A stretch of 64,000 bases of DNA from Phycisphaerales bacterium (GCA_030749435.1 JASMKH010000011.1:3325-67324); one strand, 5' to 3'; shown: positions 28,235 through 43,450, counted from the stretch's first letter. The notes: generated from the letters alone by a model not told the origin. Numbers and translations: made by a program.

Positions 28235-28238
28235 GGGT

Positions 28239-29396: not shown

Positions 29397-29474
29397 GCCC
29401 CCTCACAGCGGGGCTCTCGTTGGGCTTTGGAAGGGGCGATCGTACCATAGGACGCGCCTGGGGGCGAAGCGCGG

Positions 29475-29503
29475 TTGACACCCGCGGCCCGATGCCGCAT
29501 CAT
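29475..29503 (+). promoter_or_regulatory. Candidate sigma70-like promoter for guaB (TTGACA-17 nt-CATCAT)
   Basis: Perfect -35 hexamer at 29475-80. A 4/6 -10 match sits at 29498-503. The predicted TSS would coincide with ATG 29510. Promoter rules for this lineage are unknown. Confidence 0.25.
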
Positions 29504-29509
29504 CCGCAG

Positions 29510-30994
29510 ATGGAGCGTCTCTCGATCCCCGAAGGCATCACGTTCGACGATGTGCTGCTGGTTCCCCAGCGGAGCAACCTCACGCCGGATCAGGTCGATG
29601 TCTCGACACGCCTGACTCGTCGAATCTCCCTGCAACTCCCGCTCGTCTCCGCGCCCATGGACACCGTGACGGAGTCCCGGCTGGCGATCTCGTTGGCACA
29701 GGAGGGGGGCGTTGGCATCATCCACAAGAACCTCACGCCCGCGATGCAGGCAGCGGAAGTTGCCCGCGTCAAGCGAAGCCAGAACGGCATCATCACCGAC
29801 CCGGTCACGCTGAGCCCGGATGATTCTGTGCAACGGGCGATCGACTTGATGGAGTCACACCACGTCTCCGGGTTCCCGGTGACGCTCGACGGCACCGGAG
29901 GGGCCCGCGTTGCCGGAATCCTGACCCGGCGAGACATCAACTTCGTCGAGTCACCGCTCGATCGTGTCGGTGACGTCATGACGCCCCGGGAACGATTGGT
30001 GACCGCCGCCGCCGACATCAATCTGGCCGACGCAGAGTCACTCATGAGCCGTGGCAGAATCGAAAAACTGATTCTCGTCGATTCGGACGACGCCCTCGCA
30101 GGGCTCATCACGATGCGGGACATTGAGAATGTCCGCCGGCATCCGAACGCGTGCCGCGATGACCGTGGTCGGCTTCGAGCCGGCGCAGCCGTGGGCGTGC
30201 ACCAGATGGATCGGGTGGCAGCCCTCATTGCCGCCGATGTCGATGTGCTCGTCGTGGATACGGCCCATGGTCACTCTGAAAACGTGCTGCAGTCCGTCCG
30301 CGACATCAAGGCTGCCTACGACATCGACGTCATCGCTGGCAACATCGCCACGGGTGAGGCCGCCGAGGACCTCATCGAGGCTGGCGCCGATGCGGTCAAG
30401 GTCGGCATTGGCCCGGGAAGCATCTGCACCACGCGCATCGTTAGTGGGGTCGGCGTGCCGCAACTCACCGCGATTGCCAATGCCTGCGTGGCGTGCCAGG
30501 CCTCCGGCGTGCCGGTCATTGCCGACGGAGGTATTCGACAGAGCGGCGATGTCCCCAAGGCGATTGGCTTCGGGGCCTCTGCCGTTATGTTGGGATCACT
30601 GTTTGCGGGCATGGAAGAGAGTCCGGGCGAATTGGTGCTGCACGGCGGCCGACGCTACAAGACCTACCGCGGCATGGGCAGCATCGGCGCCATGGGTCGT
30701 GGCTCGGCCGATCGGTACGGGCAGGCCGGGGTCACCGAATCCACCAAACTGGTGCCCGAAGGGGTCGAAGGTCGGGTGCCGTATCGGGGCTCGCTGAGCG
30801 ACTTTGTCCATCAGATGATCGGGGGGTTGCGGGCCGCCATGGGCTACTGCGGATGTGAGACCGTCGAGGCGCTTCGCCAACGAGCGAGTTTCGTGCGGGT
30901 GAGCGGCGCTTCGCTGGTCGAGTCGCACGCGCACGACATCCAGATCACCAAGGAGTCGCCCAATTACACGACGTCCCCAAGGGGAAGCGAGTAG
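29510..30994 (+). CDS. guaB: IMP dehydrogenase
   Basis: [25 protein letters not shown] pair, [11 protein letters not shown] catalytic loop, [11 protein letters not shown] 29492 is the alternative start. Confidence 0.95.
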
Positions 30995-31049: not shown

Positions 31050-32180
31050 ATGCCAACAGCCAACGCAACTCAGAACGCCGAGCCCCCGATGCCCACGCGG
31101 CGACGGGATCGGATTCTCATGTTGGGACGCCGCAAGGCCGGCAAGACGGTCTTCCTGGCGCGGCTCTATGAACAGGCATGGCGGGGCGGTGATGGACTGC
31201 ACATGCGGGCCGCCGAAGGCGCGATGCACGAACTGTGCATGGAAATCGTGGAGCAACTGCACCACGGCCAGTGGCCCGCCGCCACCGCGGGTTCGCTCTG
31301 CAGCGAGGTCGAGGTCACGTGGCTCGGCATGCAGGCCACCATGCTCATGCTCGACTACCCGGGCGAAGTGTTTCGCCAGGCATTCGTCGAAGGTGGGGGC
31401 GGCGCGCAGGCCGACGAGTTGATTGACCATCTCGACCATGCCGCTGCTGTGATCCTGCTCATTGACCCGGGCAATGTGCACGCGGGCTCCGCCCGCGAAG
31501 TGGTGGACGATGACTATGGAATGGTGCAGGCGGTGGACTACCTCCGCCGCAGCCCGGGCGGCACTCAAGTCCCCCTCGCCGTCGCGCTCACCAAGTGCGA
31601 CGAGCACGTGGGACTGGTTCGATCTGCCGGCGGGGCGCGGGGTTTCATCGAGTCGAAGATTCCGAACCTGACGCAGTACGGCGGCCGGATGCGCATTTTT
31701 GCGACGGCCGCGGTGCGGACCCGCGGCGATGCGCTCGGTCGTCCGGTCCCCAATACCCAGCACGAGCCAGCGGGCCTCTCCGACGCGTTGAAGTATTGCA
31801 TGAAGCACGTCGGCGCCGCCATGGCCCAAGCAGCGAGAAACAATCGGGAGGCGGCCCGCCGCGACGAGCTCAACAGGGCTGCCGCCCGTGACCGCCGCTT
31901 CGCCCAGCAGTCGTTTCGCAGGTGGGTCGGTTTTTGGGTGGCGATGGGGATCTTCGGTGTCGTCGTCATCGTCGTGGCATTGTTCGTTGCGTTCCGGGAG
32001 CCGCAGCCCACCGAGTCGATTGCACCTCCGGTCATGGCGCCGCCGGCTGAGGTGGTGCCAGTTCCAGAGCCTGAGCCAGTTCCAGAGCCAGAGCCAGTGC
32101 CCGAGCCCGAAGCCACCGAGGATCCGGGACCGCGTATCGGCAAACTCAAGCCTTCCACTGCTGGCGGAAGCGAACCGTGA
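31050..32180 (+). CDS. Membrane-anchored Ras-like small GTPase (locus gene A)
   Basis: G1 GRRKAGKT (31125-31148), G3 DYPGE, G4 TKCD. C-terminal TM WVGFWVAMGIFGVVVIVVALFVAF, then a (PVPEPE)3 tail. GGGAG sits 5 nt upstream of the ATG. Confidence 0.85.
   Translation: MPTANATQNAEPPMPTRRRDRILMLGRRKAGKTVFLARLYEQAWRGGDGLHMRAAEGAMHELCMEIVEQLHHGQWPAATAGSLCSEVEVTWLGMQATMLMLDYPGEVFRQAFVEGGGGAQADELIDHLDHAAAVILLIDPGNVHAGSAREVVDDDYGMVQAVDYLRRSPGGTQVPLAVALTKCDEHVGLVRSAGGARGFIESKIPNLTQYGGRMRIFATAAVRTRGDALGRPVPNTQHEPAGLSDALKYCMKHVGAAMAQAARNNREAARRDELNRAAARDRRFAQQSFRRWVGFWVAMGIFGVVVIVVALFVAFREPQPTESIAPPVMAPPAEVVPVPEPEPVPEPEPVPEPEATEDPGPRIGKLKPSTAGGSEP
32058..32111 (+). repeat. 3 x 18-nt in-frame tandem repeat encoding (PVPEPE)3 in the GTPase tail
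   Basis: ccagttccagagcctgag / ccagttccagagccagag / ccagtgcccgagcccgaa. Confidence 0.8.
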
Positions 32181-33871
32181 TCTTCGAGACGCACCTCATG
32201 GGTTCCGATGGGGGCTATGGGGAGCGGGCGTGGTCGGCCGGACTGAGTGAGCGAGAACGCCAGGCCCTTCGGGACGTCGATCTTGGACATCCCAACGTGC
32301 GCACACTTGAACTCGGATCGGTCATGCTGTTCGGTCGGCCCCTCCCGGCCGGGCGAATCGCAGTGACGGCATGCGTTGCCGGGCCGAACGATGAAGCCGG
32401 ACGGCGGACTGTCGAGTTCCGGTCCATCGTCATGGCACGAGCGGACTGGACCTGCCGCGCTCGGCACGACCCCCCGCAACTGCTCGACGCTGCGCTCTGG
32501 GAAGATCCGTCCTTCGAGCAGGGCCGGACGCTCAATGTCTCGCCGGGGACGGTTGATGAGGCCGATCCCTGCAGCGACGCCCGCCTGCTGGCAGCCGCGG
32601 TGCGGCTGGGCGTGGGGCCGATTCATCTGGTCCACGGCCCGCAGACCCACGCGGCCATGCTGGGCATGCTGAGCGCACTGTCCGATCATGAGGCCGGCAA
32701 TCTGCGATGGGGCCTTCGGCTCAATCGCCCGTCCGCCGATCTTGACGTGGCAACGCTCGACCCGGCAGCACCCACCGGCGGTGTCAGCCGCACAACGCTC
32801 AAGGCGCTCCGACACATCGTGGACGAAGCACGGGAGGAGGCTGCCCTCCATGCCTCCGGTGCGGACGCTGCAGCCAGTGGCAGCGACCTTCCCCGCGGCG
32901 GCCGCGGGTTGCGCGTGGCGAGCGGGGTGCTGATCGCACTGGCAGTGGTGCTGACCGGTTGGTTGATTTCGGCGCGTTGGCAGGATGCCCCGGTTCCGCC
33001 GCCAACCGACCCGCCCGCCCCGCACCTTCCGACCACCGTGCCGAGCCCGCCAGTCACCTCGAGGACCTCGCCGAAACCTCACCCCCCGCGGCCGCCCGCA
33101 GATCCGCAGCCACCACCGGACCCGGTTCCAGCAGCGCCGCCCAACTCGTCCACACCCTCCGAGCAGGAGGCCCCCCCAACGCCGGATCCCGCTGTTCCGA
33201 CGCCTGCGCCGCCCGAGATCCCGAGCGATCCGCGAGTCGTGGCCGATGCAATCGGGGCCTTCAACCGCGATGCATTCGATTGGTGCGAGCACGCCGCCAT
33301 GGGCACCCTGACCCGGTCGGTGCGTCGGCATTGCATCGATGCCGCCATCACCGAGTTCTACGACTCCACATCCGGGTGGACTGCCCAACTCGGCGATTCG
33401 TACCAGATGCCGGACGAACTCTCACTCTGCACCCTTCTCGAACGAGCACAACGCGCCGATGCACTCTTTGAGTGGATGGGCGGGGGGACTACGCCCCCAT
33501 GGGCCGACCTTGATGAGACGATGGAATGGCTCCGCGACATCCCCGAACGCCCGCAGTCGGTGTGGCTCGGGCAGGTGAACGATCGCATCACGGCCCTCCA
33601 GGACTGCCAGCGCAAACTGGCGACCTTCACCAAGTTCCTCGCCGCGGTGCAGACCCCGTGGCGTCACGCGCCGCAGGCACCGTGCTCGCTCGAGACGGCC
33701 GCCAGAGAACTCGCCTCCTACCAGGCCCCATGTGCGCCGGAAGCCGTCGCGCTGATCGCTGATCCGCCGGGCACCAGATGGCCCCTGCGAGACCTGCCAC
33801 TCAACTCGGTGGCGAAATCCTGGACATTTCTGCAACAACAACGCGATGCTGTGACGAACCCCAGAGAGTGA
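32177..33871 (+). CDS. Bitopic protein: cytoplasmic N-domain (paralogous to gene H), TM, Pro-rich spacer, Cys-containing C-domain (locus gene B)
   Basis: GTG 32177 overlaps the gene A TGA (GTGA). TM is VASGVLIALAVVLTGWLISA. About 90 aa of P-rich linker follows. The C-terminal ~200 aa contains 6 Cys. Confidence 0.8.
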   Translation: MIFETHLMGSDGGYGERAWSAGLSERERQALRDVDLGHPNVRTLELGSVMLFGRPLPAGRIAVTACVAGPNDEAGRRTVEFRSIVMARADWTCRARHDPPQLLDAALWEDPSFEQGRTLNVSPGTVDEADPCSDARLLAAAVRLGVGPIHLVHGPQTHAAMLGMLSALSDHEAGNLRWGLRLNRPSADLDVATLDPAAPTGGVSRTTLKALRHIVDEAREEAALHASGADAAASGSDLPRGGRGLRVASGVLIALAVVLTGWLISARWQDAPVPPPTDPPAPHLPTTVPSPPVTSRTSPKPHPPRPPADPQPPPDPVPAAPPNSSTPSEQEAPPTPDPAVPTPAPPEIPSDPRVVADAIGAFNRDAFDWCEHAAMGTLTRSVRRHCIDAAITEFYDSTSGWTAQLGDSYQMPDELSLCTLLERAQRADALFEWMGGGTTPPWADLDETMEWLRDIPERPQSVWLGQVNDRITALQDCQRKLATFTKFLAAVQTPWRHAPQAPCSLETAARELASYQAPCAPEAVALIADPPGTRWPLRDLPLNSVAKSWTFLQQQRDAVTNPRE

Positions 33872-33873
33872 CC

Positions 33874-36207
33874 ATGTCGATCGGTCTGCGACATCTCGAC
33901 CGCGCAGTGCTCAGTTGCGGCCTGCTCACGCTCGCCCTCGGGTGCCAGTCCCCGCAGCAGGCCACCGAAGCCGCTGCCGACGAGACGCCGGTTCGAGACC
34001 CGAGGCCCGACGGGCGCGACGAAACGCGATGGGCGCAGCGGCAACGACCGGCCCCGAGCGCCACCTTGCCGAACAGCCAACTGTGGGCGGATGCATCATC
34101 CCCTACGCCGACCGGACGACCCTCGCCACCGCAGCGAACTGACGCCTCGGCAGCGGCACCCCCCCCGGATTCCCCCCCGGATTCCCCCCCGGATTCCCCC
34201 CCGGATTCCCCCCCGGAGTCCCCCTCGGAATCTCCCTCGGAATCTCCCTCGGAATCTCCCCCGGAATCCCCCCCGCAATCAACACCCCCCCCGGAGTCCC
34301 CCCAGCAGTCAACACCCCCCCGGGACGCCGCCCCGCCAGTCGATCCCCAGCAGCAGTCCCAATCACCACCGACCCGCACGCAGCCATCTGCGGCGACATC
34401 CGAAGACCTCCCGTCACCGGAGCGCCAGCCCCCCGCAACGTGTGATGGCGGTAGTGAGTCGGGAAGCGGTGGCGTTCCATCGGCCGGGGCGAATGACGCG
34501 CAGCCATCCACGTCTGCGCCGCAAGGCGCGACCTCGCAGGCAGGGGGTGACCCCAGCGATGAACCTGCCGCGGATCCCGGACGATCGCGGCAACTCGAAT
34601 CGCTCGAGGTGGCGGAGGGGGAGACCATCTCGCAGCGCCGCCCGGGTGGCCTCGACTCAAACGCCAGCCCCACCCCGCCAGAGGGGTCCGAGGCCGGTCC
34701 GGCACGTGAGGAGGGCGCCCAAGGCGATTTGGATGGCCACACGATGGAGCCGCAGGGCCTGCTTGAGGCGGCAAGGGCCGAGGGCCCCGACCAGTCACGC
34801 CCTGAGTGGGCCGTGTCGCCCGAAGCGACAACTCCGCCCGAGCCCGGGGCAGGGGGTGGCCCCTCGGGTGATCAGACCGGCAGCAGCGACGGGGACGCGG
34901 GCGGTTCGGACGGGTCGGGGGGGGCCGCGATGGAGGACGCTTCCGGTCGATCCGCCAGGGCCAGCCAGTCGGATGCACTCGAGCACACCGCCGGGACAAG
35001 TACCGCCGAGGGCGAGATCGAGGGCACACAGCCGCCGGAGCCGGCAGACGCCCAGGTGGAGGCTTCTGCCGCAGAGACCGCGCAGGCCGCCGGTGAGCGG
35101 CCCATCGACGTGGCCGCAGCCGCTGCTGCAGCGGCCGCCGCAGTGGAGAACGCGAGGAACTTCCACGCCGCCTTCAGCGCCGACCCGGGAGTCACCGACA
35201 CCGGTGACGATCTCGTTTCCAGAGGTGAGCACTTTGAGCCGTGGCACCGCGAGGTCCGCGGCGTCTGGGAACTCGTCTCGGTCACCGATGCCGATGAGGA
35301 CTTCATTCCCGGCGGCGCCACGCGTCGCTTGATCGGGATCGATCCCGTGCAGCGCGAACTCAACGCCTACATGGCCACCGGTGGGCGGTCCCGGGAGTGG
35401 CAGTCACTTGCATTCGAGGCGGCGTTTCGCAAAGCGCAGGTGGAGATCAGACCACTCGCCGATCGCCCCTCCGCGCTGGGTGAGCACAGCGGACTCCATC
35501 CCGCTGCAGTCGAGGTGCCCTGCGAGACCGCTTGGGCGAGGGAGGGAAGGTTTCTGCATCTCGCAGGTGGGGTCTACGCTCCGGGAGATCCCGAAGAAGT
35601 CGTCCAGATCATGGAGGCGCCGGATGTCACCCCGACTCCGACCACGCCCCTGGCCGGGCCTCTGGACCATGGGGCCGGTGGCGCATCGGCCGCATCTCCG
35701 ACGGTCGACTTCTTCGGTGTGCAGTCGCATGGTCGTTTCGTCGCCTACATCCTCGATGTGTCGCGATCCATGCGGGGTCGCATGGCTCGCCTGCAGGGGG
35801 AACTCGAAGCATCGCTCACATCGCTTCCGAGAAACGCGAGATTCGTGGTGCTTCCGTTCAACAGCACACTGCTCAAACTGCAGCCGCAATGGACCTTGGC
35901 CAGTCAGGGAAATACACGACGGGTTGGACGGGCGCTTGCCGACGTCGCGGCTGGAGGGGGGACCGATCCTGCCGAGGCCTTCGAGTGGGCGTTTCGAACC
36001 CTCGACCCCCGACCGGATGAGATCTACTTCATGACCGACGGCGCCGTCGAAGAGAGTCGCCAGTTGCTCAAGCGGCTTCGCACCTTGAATGCAGGAAGTG
36101 GGAAGACCCGAATCCACGCCATCGGACTGGGGCTCAATGCTGAAATCGGTTTCCTGAAGGCGGTGGCGGGGGACCATGGCGGTCGGTTCGTGCACGTCAC
36201 GCAGTGA
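33874..36207 (+). CDS. Lipoprotein with >400-aa acidic disordered linker and C-terminal von Willebrand factor A domain (locus gene C)
   Basis: ATG 33874 lies 2 nt after the gene B stop. Lipobox is LTLALGC. PPDS/PSES repeats are present. The vWA domain has an intact MIDAS: DVSRS (D at 35755), GGTD and MTDG. Confidence 0.85.
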   Translation: MSIGLRHLDRAVLSCGLLTLALGCQSPQQATEAAADETPVRDPRPDGRDETRWAQRQRPAPSATLPNSQLWADASSPTPTGRPSPPQRTDASAAAPPPDSPPDSPPDSPPDSPPESPSESPSESPSESPPESPPQSTPPPESPQQSTPPRDAAPPVDPQQQSQSPPTRTQPSAATSEDLPSPERQPPATCDGGSESGSGGVPSAGANDAQPSTSAPQGATSQAGGDPSDEPAADPGRSRQLESLEVAEGETISQRRPGGLDSNASPTPPEGSEAGPAREEGAQGDLDGHTMEPQGLLEAARAEGPDQSRPEWAVSPEATTPPEPGAGGGPSGDQTGSSDGDAGGSDGSGGAAMEDASGRSARASQSDALEHTAGTSTAEGEIEGTQPPEPADAQVEASAAETAQAAGERPIDVAAAAAAAAAAVENARNFHAAFSADPGVTDTGDDLVSRGEHFEPWHREVRGVWELVSVTDADEDFIPGGATRRLIGIDPVQRELNAYMATGGRSREWQSLAFEAAFRKAQVEIRPLADRPSALGEHSGLHPAAVEVPCETAWAREGRFLHLAGGVYAPGDPEEVVQIMEAPDVTPTPTTPLAGPLDHGAGGASAASPTVDFFGVQSHGRFVAYILDVSRSMRGRMARLQGELEASLTSLPRNARFVVLPFNSTLLKLQPQWTLASQGNTRRVGRALADVAAGGGTDPAEAFEWAFRTLDPRPDEIYFMTDGAVEESRQLLKRLRTLNAGSGKTRIHAIGLGLNAEIGFLKAVAGDHGGRFVHVTQ
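34159..34325 (+). repeat. 12-nt periodic tandem repeats with iterated C7-C8 tracts inside the vWA lipoprotein gene
   Basis: (ccccccggattc)x4, ccccccggagtc, (ccctcggaatct)x3, and related units. Two ~24-nt ...gcaRtcaacaccccccc units follow. Encodes PPDSx4, PPES, PSESx3... Confidence 0.9.
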
Positions 36208-36215
36208 TCGGTCCG

Positions 36216-37136
36216 CTACTGCGCAATGGAGGTGCCATGACGTATCGCGTCGTTGTACCTGAGCGTGGGTGAGGCGAGGATCGGTTCGACGTTGTGCTCG
36301 AACCCGCGCTCAACGACGAGTCGCCTCGCGGCGTGAAACTTCTCGAACGAGTCCGGCGTCACCCGGAACGAAATGAACTGCGATCGCGGTTCCAACTGAT
36401 CGAGCAGCGTTCCGATTGCCCGCAAGTCGTTGTCGGTCTCCATCGGCAGGCCGCCGTCCGGCCGAAGCTGGAGGCTGCGATCGATCCGCCGACCTCCCGT
36501 CCGAAACTCGCACGTTCCGTGGTCCTCGAAGGTGGAGGCGTCCGGATCGACCGCCTGCACATTCCAGGTGGACCAGAACCGGCACCGATCACCGATGGGA
36601 TTCGGCGTCAGTTTCCAGTCGGACCAGTCATTGACCAGATACAGGCGGTCATTTGTGAGATACACCTGAACCGGAATGCGATGCTCGATGGCGTGCCTGC
36701 GCGGCGTCCGCAGCGGAATCGTCTGCTTGTCCTTCGCGTCCTGCACCTGCCGCGTGAGGCTGCGGATGCGGGCTTGGCGGGCTTCCAGTTCACCCTCGGA
36801 ATCTGAGGCGCGGAGGTTGTCGCGGAAGCGGTCGATCAATCCGCCGAGTTCCAGCTTGATGCTCAGCATGCGTTCCATTTCACCACGCGTTCGCTCGCGG
36901 GCGGTGCGAAGCGTCATGTCGGCATCCTGCTCGATCGACTCGATGGCCAACCGCAGTCTGGCCGCCTCGAGCGATCGTTCGGGCGTCCGGGCTTCCATCG
37001 CGTCGATCGTTCGTTCGCCTCGCGCCGCGGCCAACACCGCCGCCAGCACGGCGATGAAGATCACCATGCCGAACATATTGCAGATCGTGTCGAGCAGAAG
37101 GTCAAGGCTCGACTCGTGCTCACTGGAGCGTCTCAT
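36216..37136 (-). CDS. ExbD/TolR-topology protein: N-terminal TM with conserved Asp, coiled coil, C-terminal domain (locus gene D)
   Basis: ATG 37136 overlaps the gene E TGA (ATGA). MRRSSEHESSLDLLLDTICNMFGMVIFIAVLAAVLAA has Asp16 at 37089-91. A heptad-like helical segment follows, then a Trp-rich C-domain. Confidence 0.8.
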   Translation of the reverse strand: MRRSSEHESSLDLLLDTICNMFGMVIFIAVLAAVLAAARGERTIDAMEARTPERSLEAARLRLAIESIEQDADMTLRTARERTRGEMERMLSIKLELGGLIDRFRDNLRASDSEGELEARQARIRSLTRQVQDAKDKQTIPLRTPRRHAIEHRIPVQVYLTNDRLYLVNDWSDWKLTPNPIGDRCRFWSTWNVQAVDPDASTFEDHGTCEFRTGGRRIDRSLQLRPDGGLPMETDNDLRAIGTLLDQLEPRSQFISFRVTPDSFEKFHAARRLVVERGFEHNVEPILASPTLRYNDAIRHGTSIAQ

Positions 37137-37909
37137 GGCTCCGACCTTCGGCCGGGGAACTGGCCCGTCGTGCTTGAGTCTTCGGAGATGAGGTCGATGC
37201 CGACGGCGACATCCGAGAACCGCGGGTCCCGGTCGATCTTCCGCATGATCGCCTGCCATGCGGCGAAGCCCGACGGTTTGATGCTGAGAAGCAGGTGCGT
37301 GGGCCTGGACGTCGAGGCGGTGAGCCACGCCTCGAGCGCGGCTGTCGCGATCTGCTCGGGTGTTCCGGTTCGCATCCGCGGGGCGATCCGCGGGTCGGTC
37401 CTCGAGAGCACGACGCGACCACCCATCAACTCCGTGACGAGCGCGTCGCTGTCGTCGTCTGCGACGAGGTAGGAGATCTGCCGCCGACGTTTGATTGCTT
37501 CAAGTTCACCTTGAAGCTGGCCCTCTCGGGTCGCCAGCCTGTCCAACTCGGCGAGGTCTCCGCGTCGCAGCGAGTTCGCGGCCTGCGTCTGCAGGGACTC
37601 CAGTTCCCATCGCCGCGACTCGACCAGCCCAGCTTCCAACTCCAGTGCGGCCTGGAGTTGCTCGAGTTCCGCCAGAATCACATCCCGGCCGGGCCGCGCC
37701 TGGAGTTCTTCGAGCCGGGCGCGGAGTGACTCGACCGCTTCCTCCGAGTCCTCGGAGTACACGGCGGCGACCGCCTGTGAAGTGCGTTTGCCAATGCTCA
37801 GCAGCAGCACGAGCGTGATGATCAGCACGACCCCGATCGTTCCGATCATGACGTCCTGAAACGAGAAGAAACTGATCGGCGCCGCGCGACCCGCCCGCCG
37901 CCGGCTCAT
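37133..37909 (-). CDS. ExbD/TolR-topology protein with long coiled coil (locus gene E)
   Basis: ATG 37909 overlaps the gene F TGA (ATGA). ISFFSFQDVMIGTIGVVLIITLVLLL resembles the ExbD 'IDVMLVLLIIF' segment, with Asp19 at 37853-55. An E/L/Q/R-rich coiled coil follows. Confidence 0.8.
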   Translation of the reverse strand: MSRRRAGRAAPISFFSFQDVMIGTIGVVLIITLVLLLSIGKRTSQAVAAVYSEDSEEAVESLRARLEELQARPGRDVILAELEQLQAALELEAGLVESRRWELESLQTQAANSLRRGDLAELDRLATREGQLQGELEAIKRRRQISYLVADDDSDALVTELMGGRVVLSRTDPRIAPRMRTGTPEQIATAALEAWLTASTSRPTHLLLSIKPSGFAAWQAIMRKIDRDPRFSDVAVGIDLISEDSSTTGQFPGRRSEP

Positions 37910-38796
37910 GCCGGTTCGTCCGGGGCCACCCTGACATGCGCCGTGATGTTGCGAGCGGCGTACTGCCGGCAGTCGTCGAGGAGCCGTTCGTCGCTCCGCC
38001 GTACGAATGTCAGGCTCAAGTGCAGCAGCAGGGCGGCAATGAGCCCCTCGCCGGTCGTGACAAAGGCCGTGTCGAGCCCGGCGATGACGTCAGTGAGCCG
38101 GTCGGTCAACCCGCCCATCGTGGCGTCACTTGACTCGAGCACGCCTCCGAACCCGGAGATGGCCTCGGTCAGACCGATGATGGTTCCGATGAATCCGAGG
38201 ACCGGGATGGCCCAGATGAGCCCACGGACGACCGTGTAGCCGCTGTCCATGGCATCCTCATCGGCTTCGGCCGCCGACTTGAGCATTTCATCCAGATCGG
38301 CGATTCGCCCAATGTTGCGGATCGACTTGAGCGCAATCACGACGCGGTCGAGCAGCAGAAAGCGATGCGGTTCGTCGACACCATGTTCGATCGAGTCAAT
38401 CACCCGGTCCACGGTCCGTACCGAGAGCGTGAAGCCAGCGTCAGAGGGCACAAACCGAAGCCGAAGTGCGGCCCGCTGCGCCGCAACCTTGCCAGCCTTG
38501 AGCAGCAGGATGGCAGCTGCCCAGCACGAGAGCAGCATGATGGGAATGGGGATGCCTGAGAATCCGGTGAGGTACTCCCAGACGACCGCGCCCCATCCCG
38601 TCCCCCGCACTGCCCAGGCGGTGGCATAGACCACGCCCATGAATGCAAGTCCGACAACCATCGAGGCACTTGAAGATGGCGTTGTGAAGCGCCCGGAGGG
38701 CAGGCCGAGTCGCCTCTCGGGATCGAGCGAGGCGTACGAAAGAACTCGAATGGGCTGCTGGTCCCAGGCCGCCGGCGGTGGTGCTGATCCCGTCAT
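37906..38796 (-). CDS. MotA/TolQ/ExbB-family proton-channel protein (locus gene F)
   Basis: ATG 38796 overlaps the gene G TGA (ATGA). Three TM helices. C-terminal signature WAIPVLGFIGTIIGL...GLDTAFVTTGEGLIAALLL. Confidence 0.85.
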   Translation of the reverse strand: MTGSAPPPAAWDQQPIRVLSYASLDPERRLGLPSGRFTTPSSSASMVVGLAFMGVVYATAWAVRGTGWGAVVWEYLTGFSGIPIPIMLLSCWAAAILLLKAGKVAAQRAALRLRFVPSDAGFTLSVRTVDRVIDSIEHGVDEPHRFLLLDRVVIALKSIRNIGRIADLDEMLKSAAEADEDAMDSGYTVVRGLIWAIPVLGFIGTIIGLTEAISGFGGVLESSDATMGGLTDRLTDVIAGLDTAFVTTGEGLIAALLLHLSLTFVRRSDERLLDDCRQYAARNITAHVRVAPDEPA

Positions 38797-41642
38797 GGCG
38801 CTACGAAGATAATCGCTGGAGCATGGGGCATGTTGCCAGGCCATGGCATTGACCCTGAGGCGTCGGAGGTATCGATGCGATGGAATCGCCAGCCCAGCGG
38901 TGCTCGCAGCAACACTTCGGCGGGCTGGTCGGCTCCGTCAGGCATGTCCATGGCTGCAACGTGCGGATTCTCGGAGTCCGGTCGAAGCAGGCCGCCGATG
39001 ATGCGAGGCTTCACGGCCTCGGAGAGTTCAGCCACTTCCCTTCGCCACGCCTGCCGGATCTCGTCGGATGATGGGGCGGCGTGCGGCGCATGCAGCGCCT
39101 GGCGGCGCACTTCATGCTGCGTTGGCGCGGCAGCCTTCGGCGCCAGTTTGACCCAATCGGCGGTGGTGGCACTCGGGGCTGGCGCCGAGAGTGTGTCCAA
39201 CCAATGCGCCCCGGCTTCAGCAATGCCCTCAGGCAAGGGCACGGCCGGGCTGCGCAGTGTGCTCCATACCGTGCGAAGAATGGCGAGCACGAGGAGCGGG
39301 TCCTGCTCATTGCACTGTTCAACAGCCTGCAGCAACGCTGCGGCCGCTTCGGGACTGCGGCTCCCTCTCCACGCTTCCAGCCCGCGGTGCAGGGCGGCGA
39401 CCGCGGGGGGCGGACTCGGTTCGACGCCGGCGAACATCACCCGCTGCGCCTCGTGTGTGAGGGGCTCAAGGTGGGATGCCGGAACTCGAAGATCCTGGCG
39501 GGACTCCAGACGCCGCCAGGAATGACCGGCCCGCTTCAGATAGTGGTACCCCGTTGGAGTCTCGGCGCGGTACAGATCGAGGAGCCCCGAGTCCTCAAGC
39601 GCCGCTTCGAGCGGGTCAAGATGGCGGGCGTCCTGCATGGCCGATGCGATGCGAACAAGCCGCTCGGCGGCGGATCGATACGGCGAGTGCATGCCGTGGG
39701 CGTCCAGATGTGACTGCAGGCTTGTCTTGGCGCCACCCACGAGCGGCAACTGGGGCGGCCCATCGGTGGACCACAATTGGGCCTCGGCGATTCCAGAGAG
39801 GCGCGATCGCCAGTCCTCGACAGCCCTGGCCGCCGAGGCGGCCTCGGCCGCGAGACCCCACTTCGCCCGGTCGCCCGCGTTGATGACGTCCGGATACTCG
39901 GAGATCAGCGTGTCCCACGCGCGAGCCCACATCGACTCGGTCGTCGGAACGTGGCTGAGTACCTTCAGGGCTCGTTGACCCTCCAGGAGGCGGTCGACCC
40001 TGGTCGTGGCGAGTGACCGCAACGTCGTGACGCGATGCTCCAGTGATTCGAGCCGCTGCTGCGTTGTGATCTCATCGGCGGCGGGCCGCAGGCGGATCGC
40101 CGCCAGCAGGCGAGCTGCCTCGCGGGCCTCGGCGAGACGGGCGGTCCAACCAGCCAGATCCCCAGGAAGGGGGTTGGGCTCCTTGAACAGCAACTCGATG
40201 GATGCCAACTCCTCCAGACGGGCGGTTCGCTCCTGTTGCAGCAGGGCCGTGCGGTGTGCCGTGGCCTGCTCGAGGGCCGCGTCGCTGGCCGCGTGCAGCG
40301 GTGGTGGAAGATCCGGCTGCACCCGGCGGAGCAGCGCGATGGCCGACTGGACGGATGCGAGCGAGTCGGCCTCACGCTCCAGCATCGACGTGGCTCGAAG
40401 GAGGGCGTCCTCCGCAGCAGTTCGACGGACGGCAAGGGTCTCGGATGCCCGCCCGATGGCGGCCCGGTGCGAAGCGATCTCAGCGACCTCCGTGAGGTGG
40501 GCTCGCTCGGCCTCAGCCCAGCAGTCCAGCGCCTCCGGGAGCCGGTCGGTCTGCAGCGCCGCAGCCATGCAATCCGAGAGGTACGTAATGGTTCGTGCTC
40601 GCTCAAGGCTCTGATGTCTGACGAATATGATCACCGCCAGTGCCGAGGCCACCGCGACGATGGCCAACGCGCCGACTGTGAATCGGCGGGCGCGGGCTCG
40701 CCGCTCCTCCGCGATTCGGTGGGCCACGCGGGTCTCGACGGTCCGCGGGATGGCAGCCCCGGCCTCGATCGCGGCGGCGTAGCGGCGTTCGATTCCATGC
40801 ACGGGCTCGAGTTCATCCAGCGACCGAACGAGGTCGATCACCAGATTGGCCTTGGCATCGACGCGGTCCCTGCGATCCTGATCGGCCTCGAGCCAACTTA
40901 GAACTCCTCGAATGGCGATGTCGGAGCCGCCACCGGATGCTTCGGCCTGCGTGCGCCACTGCTGCACGAGCTCGGCAGCGGCCCCTGCATCCATGGCGGC
41001 CCACGCCAGATGCAACGCACGTTCGATGGCATCGAGGCGGCTGCCGGCTGCTTGGCGGGCAAGGTCCGCCATCGCATCGTCCAACTGATGCAGGAGGTGC
41101 TGGCCGCTGGCGGTGAGGAACTCCATCCGCTGTGCCTGCCTGGACATTTCGGCAATGGCACGCTCGTCTCCAGACCCAAGGCAACGCTCCACTTCAGTTG
41201 ACCACAGTGCAACGGCCGCCTGTTCCAGCGGCTCGTGCACTCGTTTCCAAAGCGGGTTGTTGGGCTCGAGCAGCCGCAGGGCCCGTGCGGCAGCGAGACG
41301 CGCTGGGAGCGGCCGATCTTCCAGATTGGCCAGCGTCCACTGATCGACCTCGTCGCGGTGCAGCTGCCCGGTTGCGGGGATTCTGGCCAGCGCTTCGAGA
41401 GAAGGGGTGGCAGGGAGTCTCAAGCCGGACGGAAGTGGCTGCCCCGACTCGTGCAGGGTCAGGCACAGCCCAATGATGTTGCCCGCGTCGGCATTGAGCG
41501 CCGCTGCTGCGATGGCGTCCCCGCGAACCGCCCATGTGGCGCACCATGCGAGCGATCGGGAGACAGCCTCGGCTGCGGCCCGCAGCGTCACTTCGTCATC
41601 GGGCTGGCGCATCGCCGCTCGGAGTGTCTCGGCCTGATTCAT
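38793..41642 (-). CDS. 949-aa all-helical bitopic membrane protein (locus gene G)
   Basis: ATG 41642 overlaps the gene H TGA (ATGA). A single TM (FTVGALAIVAVASALAVIIFV, 40618-40680) splits a ~320-aa N-part from a ~600-aa C-part. Both parts are A/L/R/E-rich and helical. No catalytic motif seen. Confidence 0.8.
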   Translation of the reverse strand: MNQAETLRAAMRQPDDEVTLRAAAEAVSRSLAWCATWAVRGDAIAAAALNADAGNIIGLCLTLHESGQPLPSGLRLPATPSLEALARIPATGQLHRDEVDQWTLANLEDRPLPARLAAARALRLLEPNNPLWKRVHEPLEQAAVALWSTEVERCLGSGDERAIAEMSRQAQRMEFLTASGQHLLHQLDDAMADLARQAAGSRLDAIERALHLAWAAMDAGAAAELVQQWRTQAEASGGGSDIAIRGVLSWLEADQDRRDRVDAKANLVIDLVRSLDELEPVHGIERRYAAAIEAGAAIPRTVETRVAHRIAEERRARARRFTVGALAIVAVASALAVIIFVRHQSLERARTITYLSDCMAAALQTDRLPEALDCWAEAERAHLTEVAEIASHRAAIGRASETLAVRRTAAEDALLRATSMLEREADSLASVQSAIALLRRVQPDLPPPLHAASDAALEQATAHRTALLQQERTARLEELASIELLFKEPNPLPGDLAGWTARLAEAREAARLLAAIRLRPAADEITTQQRLESLEHRVTTLRSLATTRVDRLLEGQRALKVLSHVPTTESMWARAWDTLISEYPDVINAGDRAKWGLAAEAASAARAVEDWRSRLSGIAEAQLWSTDGPPQLPLVGGAKTSLQSHLDAHGMHSPYRSAAERLVRIASAMQDARHLDPLEAALEDSGLLDLYRAETPTGYHYLKRAGHSWRRLESRQDLRVPASHLEPLTHEAQRVMFAGVEPSPPPAVAALHRGLEAWRGSRSPEAAAALLQAVEQCNEQDPLLVLAILRTVWSTLRSPAVPLPEGIAEAGAHWLDTLSAPAPSATTADWVKLAPKAAAPTQHEVRRQALHAPHAAPSSDEIRQAWRREVAELSEAVKPRIIGGLLRPDSENPHVAAMDMPDGADQPAEVLLRAPLGWRFHRIDTSDASGSMPWPGNMPHAPAIIFVAP

Positions 41643-42463
41643 GGCTCGATTCCATTCCAGAGAATCAGCGCCAGCACCGCCACCAGGCCGATGATCACCA
41701 TCGGGATGATCCACGCGCGGCGCCGCTCCGGTGGTTCCAGTGAGAGAACCGCCGCCTCACCGGCTTCGGTGGCCGGCGCCTCGCGGGTATCCGCGGGCTC
41801 CGCTTCGGCCAGGTCCAGTACGCTCGCCGCGGCGGTTGGCTGTGACTCGGCCGAAAGGAGTCGCACCAGCACGCCATCGGTGAACGCCGCACCGCCGAGC
41901 AGGAAGGTGAGGTCCCATTGACGCTCGAGTGGAATCGCCTGTTCAAGTTGCCGCAACGCCTCGATCGCGTCGACGTCACGTGGGAGTCGGGCGATGAAGC
42001 CTGTCCCACGCAGCACGAGCGAGGCGAGGTGGTTGGCCCAGCGATCGTCGAGCGGGCCCGCGGGCGGGGCACCGACGCTGGCAGGCAGCCGAGGCATGTC
42101 ATGTCGGTCTGTGCCCGACCGCGAGGTGAGAAACCAGCCACTCTGCAGCAGCGACACCGGTCCGTAGTCGGGACGTTCGCCTGCCGGCAGCACCAGATGG
42201 TGCGCCACCCGACCGGGTCGATCGCCGGCTGCCCCGGGCGTGCGGGAGATTCGGGTCAACACGGAGTGCCAACCGCCCTCGATTCTCAGTGATCGATGGG
42301 CCACCAGCGGCGGCGTGTCGACAGGGGGGCTCATCACAAGCCCGGATCTGGCCTCAAGCGTTGCGGCATCCTCGGCCGAGAGATGCGGGCTCTTCCACAC
42401 CGTCGCAAAGCCGGGGACGCCTGCGGCGGTTTGGGCGGACCAGGTATGAATCAACTCATGCAT
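41639..42463 (-). CDS. Tail-anchored protein with an N-domain paralogous to gene B (GAP1-N-like?) (locus gene H)
   Basis: ATG 42463 overlaps the gene I end by 8 nt (ATGCATGA). MHELIHTWSAQTAAGVPGFATVWKSPHLS ... GDRPGRVAHHLVL. C-terminal TM AWIIPMVIIGLVAVLALILW. Confidence 0.8.
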   Translation of the reverse strand: MHELIHTWSAQTAAGVPGFATVWKSPHLSAEDAATLEARSGLVMSPPVDTPPLVAHRSLRIEGGWHSVLTRISRTPGAAGDRPGRVAHHLVLPAGERPDYGPVSLLQSGWFLTSRSGTDRHDMPRLPASVGAPPAGPLDDRWANHLASLVLRGTGFIARLPRDVDAIEALRQLEQAIPLERQWDLTFLLGGAAFTDGVLVRLLSAESQPTAAASVLDLAEAEPADTREAPATEAGEAAVLSLEPPERRRAWIIPMVIIGLVAVLALILWNGIEP

Positions 42464-43160
42464 GGGCAGCGGTGTCCTCGCGGAGGCCGGTTGCCAGGAG
42501 CAGTGCCGCGGCCATCGCTTCGGGTCCCTCTTCGACTTCGATGGCGCCGGAGTCGAGTGTGCCGCACCGCGCCAACGTCACGCGATTCGTGATCGAGATC
42601 AGCGGCGGTGGCGGCTGGCCCGACGCGGCCAGTTGAAGCGTGGTCGTTCCGGGCCGGGCAGGGGGGGCGTCAGTGCCTGCGCCAGCGAGCACGACCTCGG
42701 GCCCTCGGGGCGTGTCGGTCGTCGTCAGAAACACCGTGCGGTGCGACCCATCCGGAAAGGCAAGCATGCAGGCGGCGATATCAAGATCGGCCGTGGGCTG
42801 CGCGGCTGCAACCTGTGAGAGGATGATCTCCAGCGTGCTCAACCGCTGGCGGGCATGCGCGATCAGTTTGGTGCGGGTTGACGCGGCGTCGTCTCCAGTG
42901 AGTCGCACCAGGCCCGTCGCTGCGCTCGACCAGAGGCACTCGGGCCACGCTCGCCGGCATGCGGGGCAGGCCGGCTGAGGCGACCTGCCACCATCGGGAT
43001 CGACCGGGCAGCCGCCAGCATCGAACCGGGTGGGCATGAATCGCAGTTGCTGGTCCGATCCGAGCACCGGATCTCCGATGAGCGACGCCGAGGTCGCGAT
43101 GAATCGCGAATCGGTCGAGGACCCGCAGAATCCGCACCAGGGGCACGTGAAGTTCCTCAT
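42456..43160 (-). CDS. Cytoplasmic Zn-ribbon protein, possibly a degenerate (P-loop-less) GTPase-like paralogue (locus gene I)
   Basis: Start at ATG 43160; the longer ORF to 43220 would overlap tRNA-Arg. CPWCGFC ... CPAC Cys pairs. GLVRLTGDDAASTRT aligns loosely with the P-loop region of gene A but lacks GK[ST]. Confidence 0.7.
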   Translation of the reverse strand: MRNFTCPWCGFCGSSTDSRFIATSASLIGDPVLGSDQQLRFMPTRFDAGGCPVDPDGGRSPQPACPACRRAWPECLWSSAATGLVRLTGDDAASTRTKLIAHARQRLSTLEIILSQVAAAQPTADLDIAACMLAFPDGSHRTVFLTTTDTPRGPEVVLAGAGTDAPPARPGTTTLQLAASGQPPPPLISITNRVTLARCGTLDSGAIEVEEGPEAMAAALLLATGLREDTAAHA

Positions 43161-43213: not shown

Positions 43214-43287
43214 CGTCCACGGCAGGACTCGAACCTGCAACCTTCGGCTTCGGAGGCCGACGCTCTATCCAATTGAGCTACGTGGAC
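43214..43287 (-). tRNA. tRNA-Arg (anticodon CCG)
   Basis: Hand-folded cloverleaf: acceptor GTCCACG/CGTGGAC, D-arm GCTC..GAGC, anticodon stem TCGGC/GCCGA with loop CTCCGAA, T-arm GCAGG-TTCGAGT-CCTGC, discriminator G. CCA is not encoded. Confidence 0.9.
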
Positions 43288-43450
43288 CGAAGCGAGGAGT
43301 GTACCCGTGGCTCGCCGCAGGAGGGTGCGACGCTTTCGGGCTCGCGGCGGCAATCGCCGAGGCGGGGCACGTCCGGATCGAAGCCCCAAACCACGCTGCG
43401 GTAGTATCTCGCCGGTGACCGATTCGAACCAGCCGGAACAGACTGCAGCG

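What the first reader, a model, noticed from the sequence alone, without database searches (positions are those of the whole stretch)
41639..42463. Paralogous N-terminal domain in genes H and B, resembling GTPase-associated protein (GAP1-N-type) signatures
H begins MHELIHTWSAQTAAGVPGFATVWKSPHLSAEDAATL and later has ISRTPGAAGDRPGRVAHHLVL. B (32177-32460) begins IFETHLMGSDGGYGERAWSAGLSERERQAL and later has VTACVAGPNDEAGRRTVEFRSIVM. The shared pattern is G-x-G-[EF]-x-[AV]-W-x-S-x-x-LS ... T-x5-P-x4-GR-x7-[VL]. So each operon contributes one copy of the same domain, one bitopic (B) and one tail-anchored (H). The H motifs recall the 'LHYTS...GxxGFQ...S.G...GR.GN.FAH.LV' signature that I remember from GAP1 N-terminal domains of GTPase-centred systems. 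This is a recollection, not a search result.
Basis: partly seen in the sequence, partly recalled or inferred. Interest (0 to 1): 0.65.

Follow-up and report, generated by a model that had tools for sequence, protein, structure and literature searches.

The report
Two paralogous GTPase-partner domains, membrane-anchored
Genes H and B each start with a copy of the same ~200-residue cytoplasmic module (GAP1-N2 type, with a predicted longin/TagF-like fold). It belongs to a computationally described but experimentally untested GTPase switch, which in this marine planctomycete is conserved together with an ExbB/ExbD-like proton motor and a vWA lipoprotein.

Summary

- **H (41639-42463, minus strand):** matches Pfam GAP1-N2 above its curated cut-off (35.6 bits against 24).
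- **B (32177-33871):** scores only 16.8 bits alone. However, 34 of 75 scanned members of its family match GAP1-N2.
- **B and H compared:** family profiles align over about 177 columns (hhalign probability 95%, P = 5e-8; best of 31 controls P = 0.03). The predicted secondary structures are colinear.
- **Partners:** B follows the DO-GTPase A. H follows G, a zinc-ribbon protein. G is homologous to the N-terminus of the ZnR-DO-GTPases that precede H-type genes in distant relatives, but it has no detectable GTPase domain.
- **System:** both gene pairs, a ~950-aa bitopic protein, a MotA/ExbB homologue, two ExbD-like proteins and a vWA lipoprotein are conserved together in Phycisphaerales MAGs and in more distant metagenomic contigs. 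In one contig they form a single operon.
- **Fold:** the B-module model (pLDDT 95) is longin-type plus an α/β subdomain; its best PDB match is TagF.

I read this as a new variant of the DO-GTPase/GAP1-N2 systems of Kaur et al. 2020. The domain identity is secure. The mechanism is inferred.

The parts
41639..42463 (-). Gene H, 274 aa: GAP1-N2 module plus C-terminal tail anchor
   Evidence: ORF and translation. Pfam GAP1-N2 35.6 bits. Conserved in at least 12 loci.
42086..42460 (-). H residues 2-126: stretch matched by Pfam GAP1-N2 (profile 3-136 of 139)
41849..42085 (-). H residues 127-205: second α/β subdomain shared with B; possibly a divergent GAP1-M
   Evidence: The hhalign alignment extends to H205/B196. 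Weak GAP1-M hit in the L004 orthologue at aa 141-194, E = 0.0032. 'Faint' GAP1-M hit in the L024 H-type protein.
41660..41716 (-). H transmembrane tail anchor (aa 250-268)
   Evidence: Hydropathy. Predicted helix 245-269.
32177..33871 (+). Gene B, 564 aa: GAP1-N2-like module, TM, Pro-rich linker, periplasmic C-terminal domain
32177..32791 (+). B residues 1-205: cytoplasmic GAP1-N2-like module (Pfam sub-threshold match covers aa 9-112)
   Evidence: Exhaustive phmmer: 195 homologues aligning over about aa 3-205. AF2 model with pLDDT 95.2. hhalign to the H family.
32915..32971 (+). B transmembrane helix (aa 247-265)
31050..32180 (+). Gene A, 376 aa: DO-GTPase with C-terminal TM (aa 297-315) and a PEPEPV-repeat tail. 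Its stop overlaps the start of B (GTGA).
   Evidence: Pfam DO-GTPase2/1. Motifs GRRKAGKT, DYPGE and TKCD. TM.
33874..36207 (+). Gene C: lipoprotein (signal ...LALGC) with a long Pro/Ser-rich region and a C-terminal vWA domain
   Evidence: Pfam VWA_3 9.3e-12. N-terminal sequence. Conserved in relatives.
42456..43160 (-). Gene G, 234 aa: zinc-ribbon module (aa 1-77; 42930-43160) plus a non-GTPase extension. Its stop overlaps the start of H.
   Evidence: Translation. Alignment to the ZnR-DO-GTPases. hhalign probability 98.8%, P = 8e-17 for the ZnR, and none for the remainder.
38793..41642 (-). Gene I, 949 aa: bitopic (TM aa 323-341), no known domain; ATGA overlap with H
37906..38796 (-). Gene L: MotA/ExbB/TolQ-family proton-channel subunit. 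The ORF runs to 38844; the start at 38796 follows the gene call in L003.
   Evidence: Pfam MotA_ExbB 1.3e-10. Weak ZorA hits in PADLOC. Gene call.
37133..37909 (-). Gene M, 258 aa: single-pass, ExbD/TolR/MotB-like N-terminus with invariant FQDVM Asp
   Evidence: weak ZorB2 hit
36216..37136 (-). Gene N, 306 aa (from Met65 of the 370-codon ORF): single-pass, invariant LLLDT(I/V)CN motif at the TM
43214..43287 (-). tRNA-Arg(CCG), 53 bp upstream of G; in the same position in relatives
   Evidence: ARAGORN. Same sequence upstream of G in L001, L004, L006-L008 and L010.

Best explanation
H and B are ancient paralogues. Each carries the same ~200-residue cytoplasmic module: a GAP1-N2 domain with a longin-type ββαβββα topology, followed by a small α/β subdomain that may be a divergent GAP1-M. 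A transmembrane helix just after the module holds it at the inner face of the cytoplasmic membrane.

They are the 'GTPase-associated protein 1' components of a DO-GTPase/GAP1-N2 system. The ancestral system had two GTPase-GAP1 gene pairs: a TM-anchored GTPase followed by a bitopic GAP1 (A then B), and a ZnR-GTPase followed by a tail-anchored GAP1 (G then H). In this lineage the second GTPase has been reduced to its zinc-ribbon module (G), so A is the only active GTPase.

Most likely mechanism (inferred). The two modules dock the GTPase A, as longin and roadblock platforms do for other small GTPases. They may act together as a B-H pair, with the invariant loop arginine (B R76, H R82) a candidate catalytic or contact residue. 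In this way they would couple the nucleotide state of A to the trans-envelope parts:
- B reaches the periplasm with its own C-terminal domain, next to the vWA lipoprotein C.
- H is translationally coupled to the bitopic protein I and to an ExbB/ExbD-type proton-driven motor (L, M, N).

Whether the machine serves defence, as Kaur et al. propose for this class, or a housekeeping envelope function is open.

Shown here: domain identity, paralogy, topology, gene linkage and conservation. Inferred: GTPase binding, B-H pairing, the role of the arginine, and coupling to the motor.
For: - **Pfam:** H matches GAP1-N2 at 35.6 bits against a cut-off of 24. 12 of 12 H-family members match, best 5.9e-16. 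34 of 75 scanned B-family members match, best 1.9e-8.
- **Profile-profile:** probability 94.9%, P = 4.8e-8 over 177 columns, with clean controls.
- **Predicted structure:** the same order of elements in both models. B: E2-10, E14-19, H25-32, E50-55, E61-71, E77-86, helices, H133-143, E149-152, H155-167, H170-175, E178-182, E191-194 (pLDDT 95.2). H: E2-9, E18-24, H30-39, E53-61, E64-75, E84-93, H102-108, H140-151, E156-159, H166-176, H179-184, E187-189, E200-203 (pLDDT 68).
- **Fold search of B:** TagF 9t0n E = 6e-5 over 244 columns; TagF 6iz8; Lst4 longin (probability 0.96); an Asgard Roadblock-Longin protein; GATOR1 and FLCN-FNIP2.
- **GTPase partners:** A is a DO-GTPase with intact motifs. 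The stop of A overlaps the start of B.
- **G and H:** the ZnR of G is homologous to the ZnR of the 396-402-aa ZnR-DO-GTPase2 proteins, which carry GAPGSGKT, DNAGE and TKAD and lie directly upstream of H-type genes in L017-L021.
- **Conservation:** the whole gene set is conserved in L004-L012 and in L014 and L015/L017. It forms one co-directional operon in L024.
- **Literature:** Kaur et al. 2020 (PMC7159879) define GAP1 as encoded downstream of, or fused to, DO-GTPases and often fused to C-terminal TMs in N2 systems. Longin domains are recurrent GTPase platforms and form heterodimeric GAPs with an arginine finger (PMC3521125; PMC12290439).
Against: - B by itself is below the Pfam threshold (16.8 bits). 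BLASTP and HMM-to-sequence comparison do not link B and H.
- GAP1-C is absent. GAP1-M is at best sub-threshold.
- No FNIII protein is present in this locus, although FNIII is said to typify N2 systems.
- The H model is only moderately confident (pLDDT 68), and its PDB matches are weak: PAS/LOV and TagF at E of about 0.01-0.04.
- TM-scores of the B model to TagF and to longin domains are modest (0.3-0.4).
- No binding, GAP or GEF activity has been shown for any GAP1 protein. I could not superpose models, so equivalence of the arginine to longin-GAP arginine fingers is untested.
- No multimer prediction was possible.
Confidence: 0.75

Rival explanations
1. The modules act as TagF-like adaptors or repressors that bind the neighbouring FHA-GAF-PP2C protein, that is, a phospho-threonine pathway as in type VI secretion, and not primarily as GTPase partners.
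For: The best PDB matches of the B module are TagF structures (9t0n E = 6e-5; 6iz8 E = 1e-3). TagF also appears among the H matches. An FHA-GAF-SpoIIE/PP2C gene (43307-45037) is divergent from G-H and keeps that position in L001, L006, L007, L008 and L012. From my own knowledge: TagF binds the FHA protein Fha and is fused to the PP2C phosphatase PppA in Agrobacterium.
Against: No Pfam TagF-family match in H, B or their families. No type VI secretion genes in the cluster. FHA-PP2C is not adjacent in the distant loci L014, L015/L017, L019-L022 and L024, whereas a DO-GTPase gene directly precedes the GAP1-N2 gene wherever the upstream gene is on the contig. No protein kinase was seen in the cluster.
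Confidence: 0.1
2. The N-terminal subdomain is a PAS-like small-molecule sensor, and the resemblance to GTPase platforms is only a shared general fold.
For: PAS/LOV domains are the top matches for the H model (E of about 0.01-0.05) and appear lower down for B. The longin fold is PAS-like (PMC3521125).
Against: For the confident B model, TagF and longin domains outrank PAS/LOV. The strict gene adjacency to DO-GTPases and the Pfam family definition point to a protein partner. No cofactor-binding motif is apparent.
Confidence: 0.05
3. The B-H resemblance is chance or compositional similarity between two unrelated high-GC proteins.
For: BLASTP E = 1.3. About 14% identity in the hhalign alignment.
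Against: hhalign P = 4.8e-8 against a best of 0.029 in 31 controls. Independent Pfam hits of both families to the same model. Colinear predicted secondary structure. Equivalent gene position after a DO-GTPase or ZnR gene.
Confidence: 0.02

Closest known systems
DO-GTPase / GAP1-N2 GTPase-centric systems (Kaur, Burroughs, Iyer & Aravind, eLife 2020; Pfam PF20013, PF19993, PF19975)
   Same: DO-GTPase with a Walker-B Glu. The GAP1-N2 gene lies immediately downstream. GAP1 is fused to a C-terminal TM. There are two paralogous GTPase pairs in relatives, a ZnR on one GTPase, a vWA component and a planctomycete host, with GYF-domain genes near relatives' loci.
   Different: - GAP1 here has no GAP1-C and at most a cryptic GAP1-M.
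- No FNIII protein in this locus.
- One GTPase is reduced to a stand-alone ZnR protein.
- A MotA/ExbB plus two ExbD-like proteins and a ~950-1020-aa bitopic protein are constant components. The paper's text never mentions MotA, ExbB or TolQ.
- Gene content is constant rather than hypervariable.
- No recognisable effector.
TagF (type VI secretion accessory protein; PDB 9t0n, 6iz8, 2qnu)
   Same: Best structural match of the B module across both subdomains (244 columns, E = 6e-5).
   Different: No sequence-family match and no T6SS context. TM-score is only about 0.3-0.4. As far as I know, TagF is not known as a GTPase partner.
Longin-domain GTPase regulators (Lst4/FNIP, FLCN, Nprl2/3, C9orf72-SMCR8) and the roadblock GAP MglB
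   Same: ββαβββα topology of the first subdomain. Foldseek matches to the Lst4 longin domain, an Asgard Roadblock-Longin protein, GATOR1 and FLCN-FNIP2. Two paralogous longin-type proteins associated with one GTPase, as in heterodimeric longin GAPs. An invariant Arg in a β-hairpin loop.
   Different: The GTPase is a TRAFAC DO-GTPase, not a Rag, Arf or MglA type. Membrane anchoring is by the proteins' own TM helices. No evidence for dimerisation or for an arginine finger.
ExbB-ExbD / TolQ-TolR / MotA-MotB / AglRQS / ZorAB proton-driven stator units
   Same: L matches MotA_ExbB. M and N are single-pass proteins with an invariant Asp at the start of the TM. One channel subunit with two TolR-like subunits recalls AglRQS of Myxococcus, which is controlled by a small GTPase (MglA) and a roadblock GAP (my own knowledge).
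   Different: M and N match no ExbD, MotB or OmpA Pfam model. There are no TonB, Pal, flagellar, Glt or ZorC/D partners. PADLOC hits are only weak ZorA/ZorB family-level matches.

Membership tests
GAP1 (GTPase-associated protein 1), N2 type | GAP1-N2 domain (Pfam PF20013) - protein H | tested here: met
   35.6 bits, E = 1.1e-8, gathering score 24, aa 2-126. 12 of 12 family members match.
GAP1 (GTPase-associated protein 1), N2 type | GAP1-N2 domain (Pfam PF20013) - protein B | tested here: inconclusive
   B alone scores 16.8 bits, below 24. Support comes from 34 of 75 scanned family members matching and from hhalign to the H family at P = 4.8e-8. Homology is supported; the curated threshold is not reached.
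GAP1 (GTPase-associated protein 1), N2 type | GAP1-M middle domain (PF20014) | tested here: inconclusive
   No hit in window H or B, even at E up to 10. Sub-threshold hit in 2 of 12 H-family members (L004 aa 141-194, 18.1 bits against 24). 'Faint' hit in the L024 H-type protein.
GAP1 (GTPase-associated protein 1), N2 type | GAP1-C C-terminal domain | tested here: not met
   No Pfam hit. H ends in a TM after a short acidic linker. In B the module is followed by a TM and periplasmic sequence.
GAP1 (GTPase-associated protein 1), N2 type | Encoded directly downstream of (or fused to) a DO-GTPase gene | tested here: met
   A then B with overlapping stop and start. H follows G, whose ZnR is homologous to that of the ZnR-DO-GTPase2 proteins upstream of H-type genes in L017-L021 and L024. 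In the window itself G has no detectable GTPase domain.
GAP1 (GTPase-associated protein 1), N2 type | Accompanying FNIII-repeat protein | tested here: not met
   No fn3 hit in the cluster proteins scanned. Some B-family relatives do carry fn3.
DO-GTPase (protein A) | Pfam DO-GTPase1/2 match, P-loop, Walker B with conserved Glu | tested here: met
   33.1 and 31.8 bits against a cut-off of 27. GRRKAGKT, DYPGE and TKCD are present.
DO-GTPase (protein G) | GTPase domain after the N-terminal zinc ribbon | tested here: not met
   ZnR homologous at P = 8e-17. The remainder shows no similarity to the GTPase domain (P = 0.87), and LTGDDAAST lies where the P-loop would be. G is only 84-97 aa in L004-L007.
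TagF family (T6SS) | Sequence-family match and T6SS gene context | tested here: not met
   No TagF Pfam hit. No T6SS genes among the neighbours. Only fold similarity.
Longin-domain GAP complexes | Longin topology | tested here: met
   ββαβββα in a model with pLDDT 95. Foldseek longin matches with probability 0.84-0.97 but E of only 0.01-0.2.
Longin-domain GAP complexes | Heterodimer of two longin subunits with a catalytic arginine finger contacting the GTPase | not testable with these tools
   No multimer prediction or model superposition was available. I can only note the invariant aligned Arg (B R76, H R82).
ExbB-ExbD/TolQR/MotAB stator | MotA/ExbB channel subunit plus a single-pass partner with a TM Asp | tested here: met
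   L matches MotA_ExbB at 1.3e-10. M (FQDVM) and N (LLLDT) motifs are invariant across loci. M and N have no ExbD or MotB Pfam match.
Zorya defence system | ZorA and ZorB with ZorC/D or ZorE | tested here: not met
   Only weak family-level ZorA (3.9e-5) and ZorB2 (0.013) hits. No other PADLOC hit in 10 proteins.

The most novel reading that the evidence does not exclude
B and H form a membrane-tethered heterodimer of longin-type modules that acts as the GAP, or otherwise as the nucleotide-state regulator, of the bacterial DO-GTPase A. This would be analogous to FLCN-FNIP, Nprl2-Nprl3 and C9orf72-SMCR8. The switch would gate an ExbB/ExbD-type proton-driven trans-envelope machine. It would be a bacterial counterpart of eukaryotic longin-GAP complexes, coupled to a PMF motor, and would give GAP1 and TagF-like proteins a shared biochemical role.
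Probability: 0.15. Interest if true: 0.85.

Novelty: new variant of a known kind. Interest (0 to 1): 0.55.

Why it matters
DO-GTPase/GAP1 systems are known only from comparative genomics. No member has a determined structure, biochemical activity or phenotype in the literature I could search. This locus and its relatives offer a compact, constant version of the system:
- two GAP1-N2 modules;
- one live GTPase and one that has lost its GTPase domain;
- a proton-motor module and a vWA lipoprotein.

The confident model of the B module suggests that GAP1-N2 is a longin-type domain. That gives a concrete, testable biochemical role (a GTPase docking or GAP platform). It also links GAP1 to TagF at fold level.

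The constant association with an ExbB/ExbD-like motor is not mentioned in the describing paper. It suggests energy-dependent trans-envelope signalling or work under GTPase control in Planctomycetota.

Tried and rejected
- **BLASTP of the H and B modules:** nothing significant.
- **HMM-to-sequence search** of each family against all window ORFs: each finds only itself, with B-HMM against H at E = 0.056.
- **Word-index search with full-length B:** found only B itself, probably swamped by the Pro-rich linker. The exhaustive search with the N-module alone then worked.
- **Profile of the B family against PDB sequences:** only Pro-rich low-complexity hits.
- **G's C-terminal 150 residues as a decayed GTPase domain:** the MAFFT alignment places LTGDDAAST under the P-loop, but hhalign finds no similarity (P = 0.87). 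I claim only loss of the GTPase domain, not a recognisable remnant.
- **Structure prediction of H with the 12-sequence alignment:** The 7-sequence alignment gave only pLDDT 68.
- **PADLOC and NCBIfam:** no system-level match. The GltJ and TonB hits are Pro-rich artefacts.
- **Mobile island at the tRNA-Arg:** rejected, because the same flanks (FHA-PP2C and tRNA; sdh in the closest relatives) are kept in relatives down to about 30% identity.
- **Terminator between the convergent stop codons (36207 and 36216):** none found.
- **Supplement of Kaur et al.** for MotA, ExbB or TolQ: nothing in the one file held as text.

Full report
**1. Observation**

The region 41639-42463 on the minus strand is a 274-codon ORF (H) with exactly the quoted sequences. 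The ORF starting at the GTG at 32177 (B, 564 aa) also carries the quoted sequences. The window has about 65% G+C.

Hydropathy gives one TM helix in each protein. In B it lies at aa 247-265, followed by about 300 residues. In H it lies at aa 250-268 of 274.

The shared Trp is one position out of register and is not conserved in either family. Corrected gap-free motifs fit both proteins at equivalent positions:
- G-[FY]-x5-S-x2-[LIVM]-[ST] at H18 and B13;
- T-x5-P-x5-R-x7-hhh at H70 and B64.

**2. Is the resemblance more than chance?**

Not at the pairwise level. BLASTP gives E = 1.3, and a B-family HMM scores H at E = 0.056.

It is significant at the family level.
- H matches Pfam GAP1-N2 (PF20013) at 35.6 bits, E = 1.1e-8, against a gathering score of 24, over aa 2-126.
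- B matches the same model at only 16.8 bits (E = 0.007).
- An exhaustive phmmer search with B aa 1-240 found 195 proteins (E up to 1e-3), all aligned over about aa 3-205 at their N-termini. Of 75 of these scanned, 34 match GAP1-N2, best E = 1.9e-8.
- All 12 H-family members match GAP1-N2, best E = 5.9e-16.
- hhalign of a 14-sequence H family against the 150-sequence B family gives probability 94.9% and P = 4.8e-8. It aligns 177 colinear columns, H14-205 to B9-196.
- With the first 10-sequence H alignment, the real score was 39.9 (P = 2.5e-5). Thirty column-shuffled controls and one reversed control reached at most 20.6 (P = 0.029).
- An invariant arginine of the B family (R76, in DDAGR) aligns with the nearly invariant R82 of the H family. 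Both families keep a His at position 6 of the first strand.

**3. Structure**

An AlphaFold2 model of B aa 1-220 (75-sequence alignment) has mean pLDDT 95.2 and pTM 0.91. Its element order is ββαβββα (with further short helices) followed by αβααββα. The first part is the longin topology.

The H model used only a 7-sequence alignment and reached pLDDT 68. It shows the same order of elements plus the C-terminal TM helix.

Foldseek of the B model against the PDB gave:
- TagF 9t0n: E = 6.1e-5, probability 1.0, 244 columns, TM-score 0.42/0.31;
- TagF 6iz8: E = 1e-3;
- the Lst4 (FNIP) longin domain: E = 0.012, probability 0.96;
- further down: an Asgard Roadblock-Longin protein, GATOR1 and FLCN-FNIP2;
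- PAS/LOV domains, weaker.

The H model gave only weak matches: PAS/LOV at about 0.01, FNIP2 with probability 0.91, and TagF at about 0.04.

The fold assignment is therefore moderate. The topology is clear, but the TM-scores are modest. Kaur et al. 2020 do not mention longin, roadblock, DENN or TagF.

**4. Surroundings in the window**

Plus strand:
- **A (31050-32180)** is a DO-GTPase. It scores 33.1 bits on DO-GTPase2 and 31.8 on DO-GTPase1, against a cut-off of 27. It has GRRKAGKT, DYPGE and TKCD motifs and a C-terminal TM.
- **B** starts on the stop codon of A.
- **C (33874-36207)** is a lipoprotein (LALGC lipobox) with a Pro/Ser-rich region and a C-terminal vWA domain.

Minus strand, converging on C with 8 bp between the stop codons:
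- tRNA-Arg(CCG) at 43214-43287;
- **G (42456-43160)**, with CxxC...CxxC motifs;
- **H**;
- **I (38793-41642)**, 949 aa, one TM, no known domain;
- **L**, MotA/ExbB family, E = 1.3e-10;
- **M and N**, single-pass proteins with an Asp at the start of the TM (FQDVM in M, LLLDT in N), as in ExbD and TolR.

Gene junctions G/H, H/I, I/L, L/M and M/N overlap by a few bases. PADLOC gave only weak ZorA/ZorB family-level hits.

**5. Relatives**

H has few close relatives. A scan of GTDB genomes found nine loci, all in marine Phycisphaerales or 'Isosphaeraceae' MAGs of the Planctomycetota.

tblastn shows the same layout in these loci, at H identities of 30-52%: FHA-PP2C, then G-H-I-L-M-N, converging on C-B-A. 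The tRNA-Arg sequence lies upstream of G in L001, L004, L006-L008 and L010.

More distant metagenomic contigs keep the system:
- **L014 and L015/L017** have DO-GTPase, B-type, (one extra gene), vWA, converging on a 318-aa protein, a 256-273-aa protein, MotA_ExbB, a ~1010-aa protein and GAP1-N2. A 402-aa protein lies upstream of the GAP1-N2 gene in L015/L017. In L014 the contig ends within that gene.
- **L019-L022** keep the H-side module.
- **L024**, on an 822-kb contig, has everything in one co-directional operon: DO-GTPase, B-type GAP1-N2, a 1047-aa protein, DO-GTPase2, GAP1-N2 plus GAP1-M, a 999-aa protein, MotA_ExbB, and so on.

The two 'operons' of the window are therefore halves of one system.

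**6. What G is**

The 396-402-aa proteins upstream of H-type genes in L017-L021 have the same N-terminal zinc-ribbon module as G. BLASTP gives 36% identity at E = 1.8e-11, and hhalign gives probability 98.8% and P = 8e-17. In those proteins the module is followed by an intact GTPase with GAPGSGKT, DNAGE and TKAD motifs, scoring 28.1 bits on DO-GTPase2 against a cut-off of 27.

In the window's clade G is either 84-97 aa (ZnR only; L004-L007) or 180-238 aa with an extension. That extension shows no detectable similarity to a GTPase (P = 0.87). A is the only DO-GTPase in the 64-kb window.

So the ancestral system had two GTPase-GAP1 pairs. This lineage kept both GAP1 paralogues but only one GTPase domain.

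**7. Second subdomain**

The B-H alignment runs well beyond the Pfam GAP1-N2 region. Two of 12 H-family members give a sub-threshold GAP1-M hit on this part (L004 aa 141-194, 18.1 bits against 24). The L024 H-type protein has a 'faint' GAP1-M hit on record.

The shared module is therefore probably GAP1-N2 plus a divergent GAP1-M. GAP1-C is absent.

**8. Mechanism**

Shown: domain identity, paralogy, topology, linkage and conservation.

Inferred: the two membrane-tethered modules dock the GTPase A. Three observations support this:
- GAP1 genes lie next to, or are fused with, DO-GTPase genes.
- Longin and roadblock domains are recurrent GTPase platforms.
- Longin GAPs work as heterodimers of two longin subunits with an arginine finger.

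A B-H pair would explain why both paralogues persist while one GTPase was lost.

B would link the switch to the periplasm, through its own C-terminal domain and the vWA lipoprotein C. H would link it to protein I and the ExbB/ExbD-like motor.

The biological role is open. Kaur et al. argue for conflict systems. Here the gene content is constant, the chromosomal position is conserved, and no effector is recognisable. This is equally compatible with a housekeeping envelope function.

**9. Comparison and novelty**

This is a member of the DO-GTPase/GAP1-N2 class (Kaur et al. 2020), which includes planctomycete examples with GYF-domain genes. Such genes are seen near relatives' loci.

It differs from the description of that class in these ways:
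- GAP1 proteins with only the N domain (plus possibly M) and a TM;
- no FNIII protein;
- a ZnR protein that has lost its GTPase domain;
- a constant ExbB/ExbD-like motor and a ~1000-aa bitopic protein, not mentioned in the paper's text.

I rate it a new variant of a known kind.

Noticed in passing
window 43307-45037 (+): An FHA-GAF-SpoIIE/PP2C phosphatase gene lies divergent from the tRNA-Arg/G-H genes. It keeps this position in L001, L006, L007, L008 and L012, even where the sdh neighbours differ. It is absent next to the distant loci. This is intriguing because the best fold match of the module is TagF, which from my own knowledge works with Fha and PppA in T6SS.
   Followed up: partly
window 43214-43287 (-): tRNA-Arg(CCG) lies 53 bp upstream of G on the same strand, and the same sequence is upstream of G in relatives. 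It may be co-transcribed with the G-H-I-L-M-N genes. It does not mark a mobile island.
   Followed up: partly
window 42456-43160 (-); L004:103-357, L006:9715-10008: G varies from 84-97 aa (zinc ribbon only) to 234-238 aa among close relatives. This suggests stepwise loss of a GTPase domain, with the zinc-ribbon module retained under selection.
   Followed up: yes
window 34160-34336 (+) and 32057-32107 (+): In-frame tandem repeats. A 12-bp unit repeated about 10 times encodes the PPDS/PSES repeats in the disordered region of lipoprotein C. An 18-bp unit repeated 2.8 times encodes PEPEPV in the periplasmic tail of GTPase A.
   Followed up: no
window 36207-36216: The convergent genes C and N stop 8 bp apart, with no terminator-like hairpin detected. 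The same tight convergence is seen in relatives (for example L002, 16248/16257).
   Followed up: partly
L004 and L007: Both loci come from the same MAG (Arabian9_MAG_66) but encode clearly different copies of G-H-I. Either there are two copies of the system in one genome, as Kaur et al. report for such systems, or the bin is mixed.
   Followed up: no
L011:291-803: The H homologue is truncated to 170 aa with an unrelated tail, while I and L follow normally. This is a probable frameshift or assembly error.
   Followed up: no
L017:1207-1953, L019:10993-11772, L021:276-932: GYF_2-domain proteins are encoded near the distant homologous systems. This matches the planctomycete GYF association mentioned by Kaur et al. 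None was seen in the window cluster.
   Followed up: no
window 26576-28726 (-) and 28017-29450 (+): A T2SSE-family secretion ATPase ORF (716 aa, Pfam 1.1e-37) overlaps a 477-aa plus-strand ORF with no Pfam match by about 700 bp. Only one of the two is likely to be real over the overlap. IMPDH (guaB, 29420-30994) lies immediately upstream of A.
   Followed up: no
L024:12271-15414: In the single-operon version of the system, a 1047-aa protein with a weak Trypsin_2 hit sits between the two GTPase-GAP1 pairs, where the window has the vWA lipoprotein C. This may be a variable 'effector/sensor' slot.
   Followed up: no
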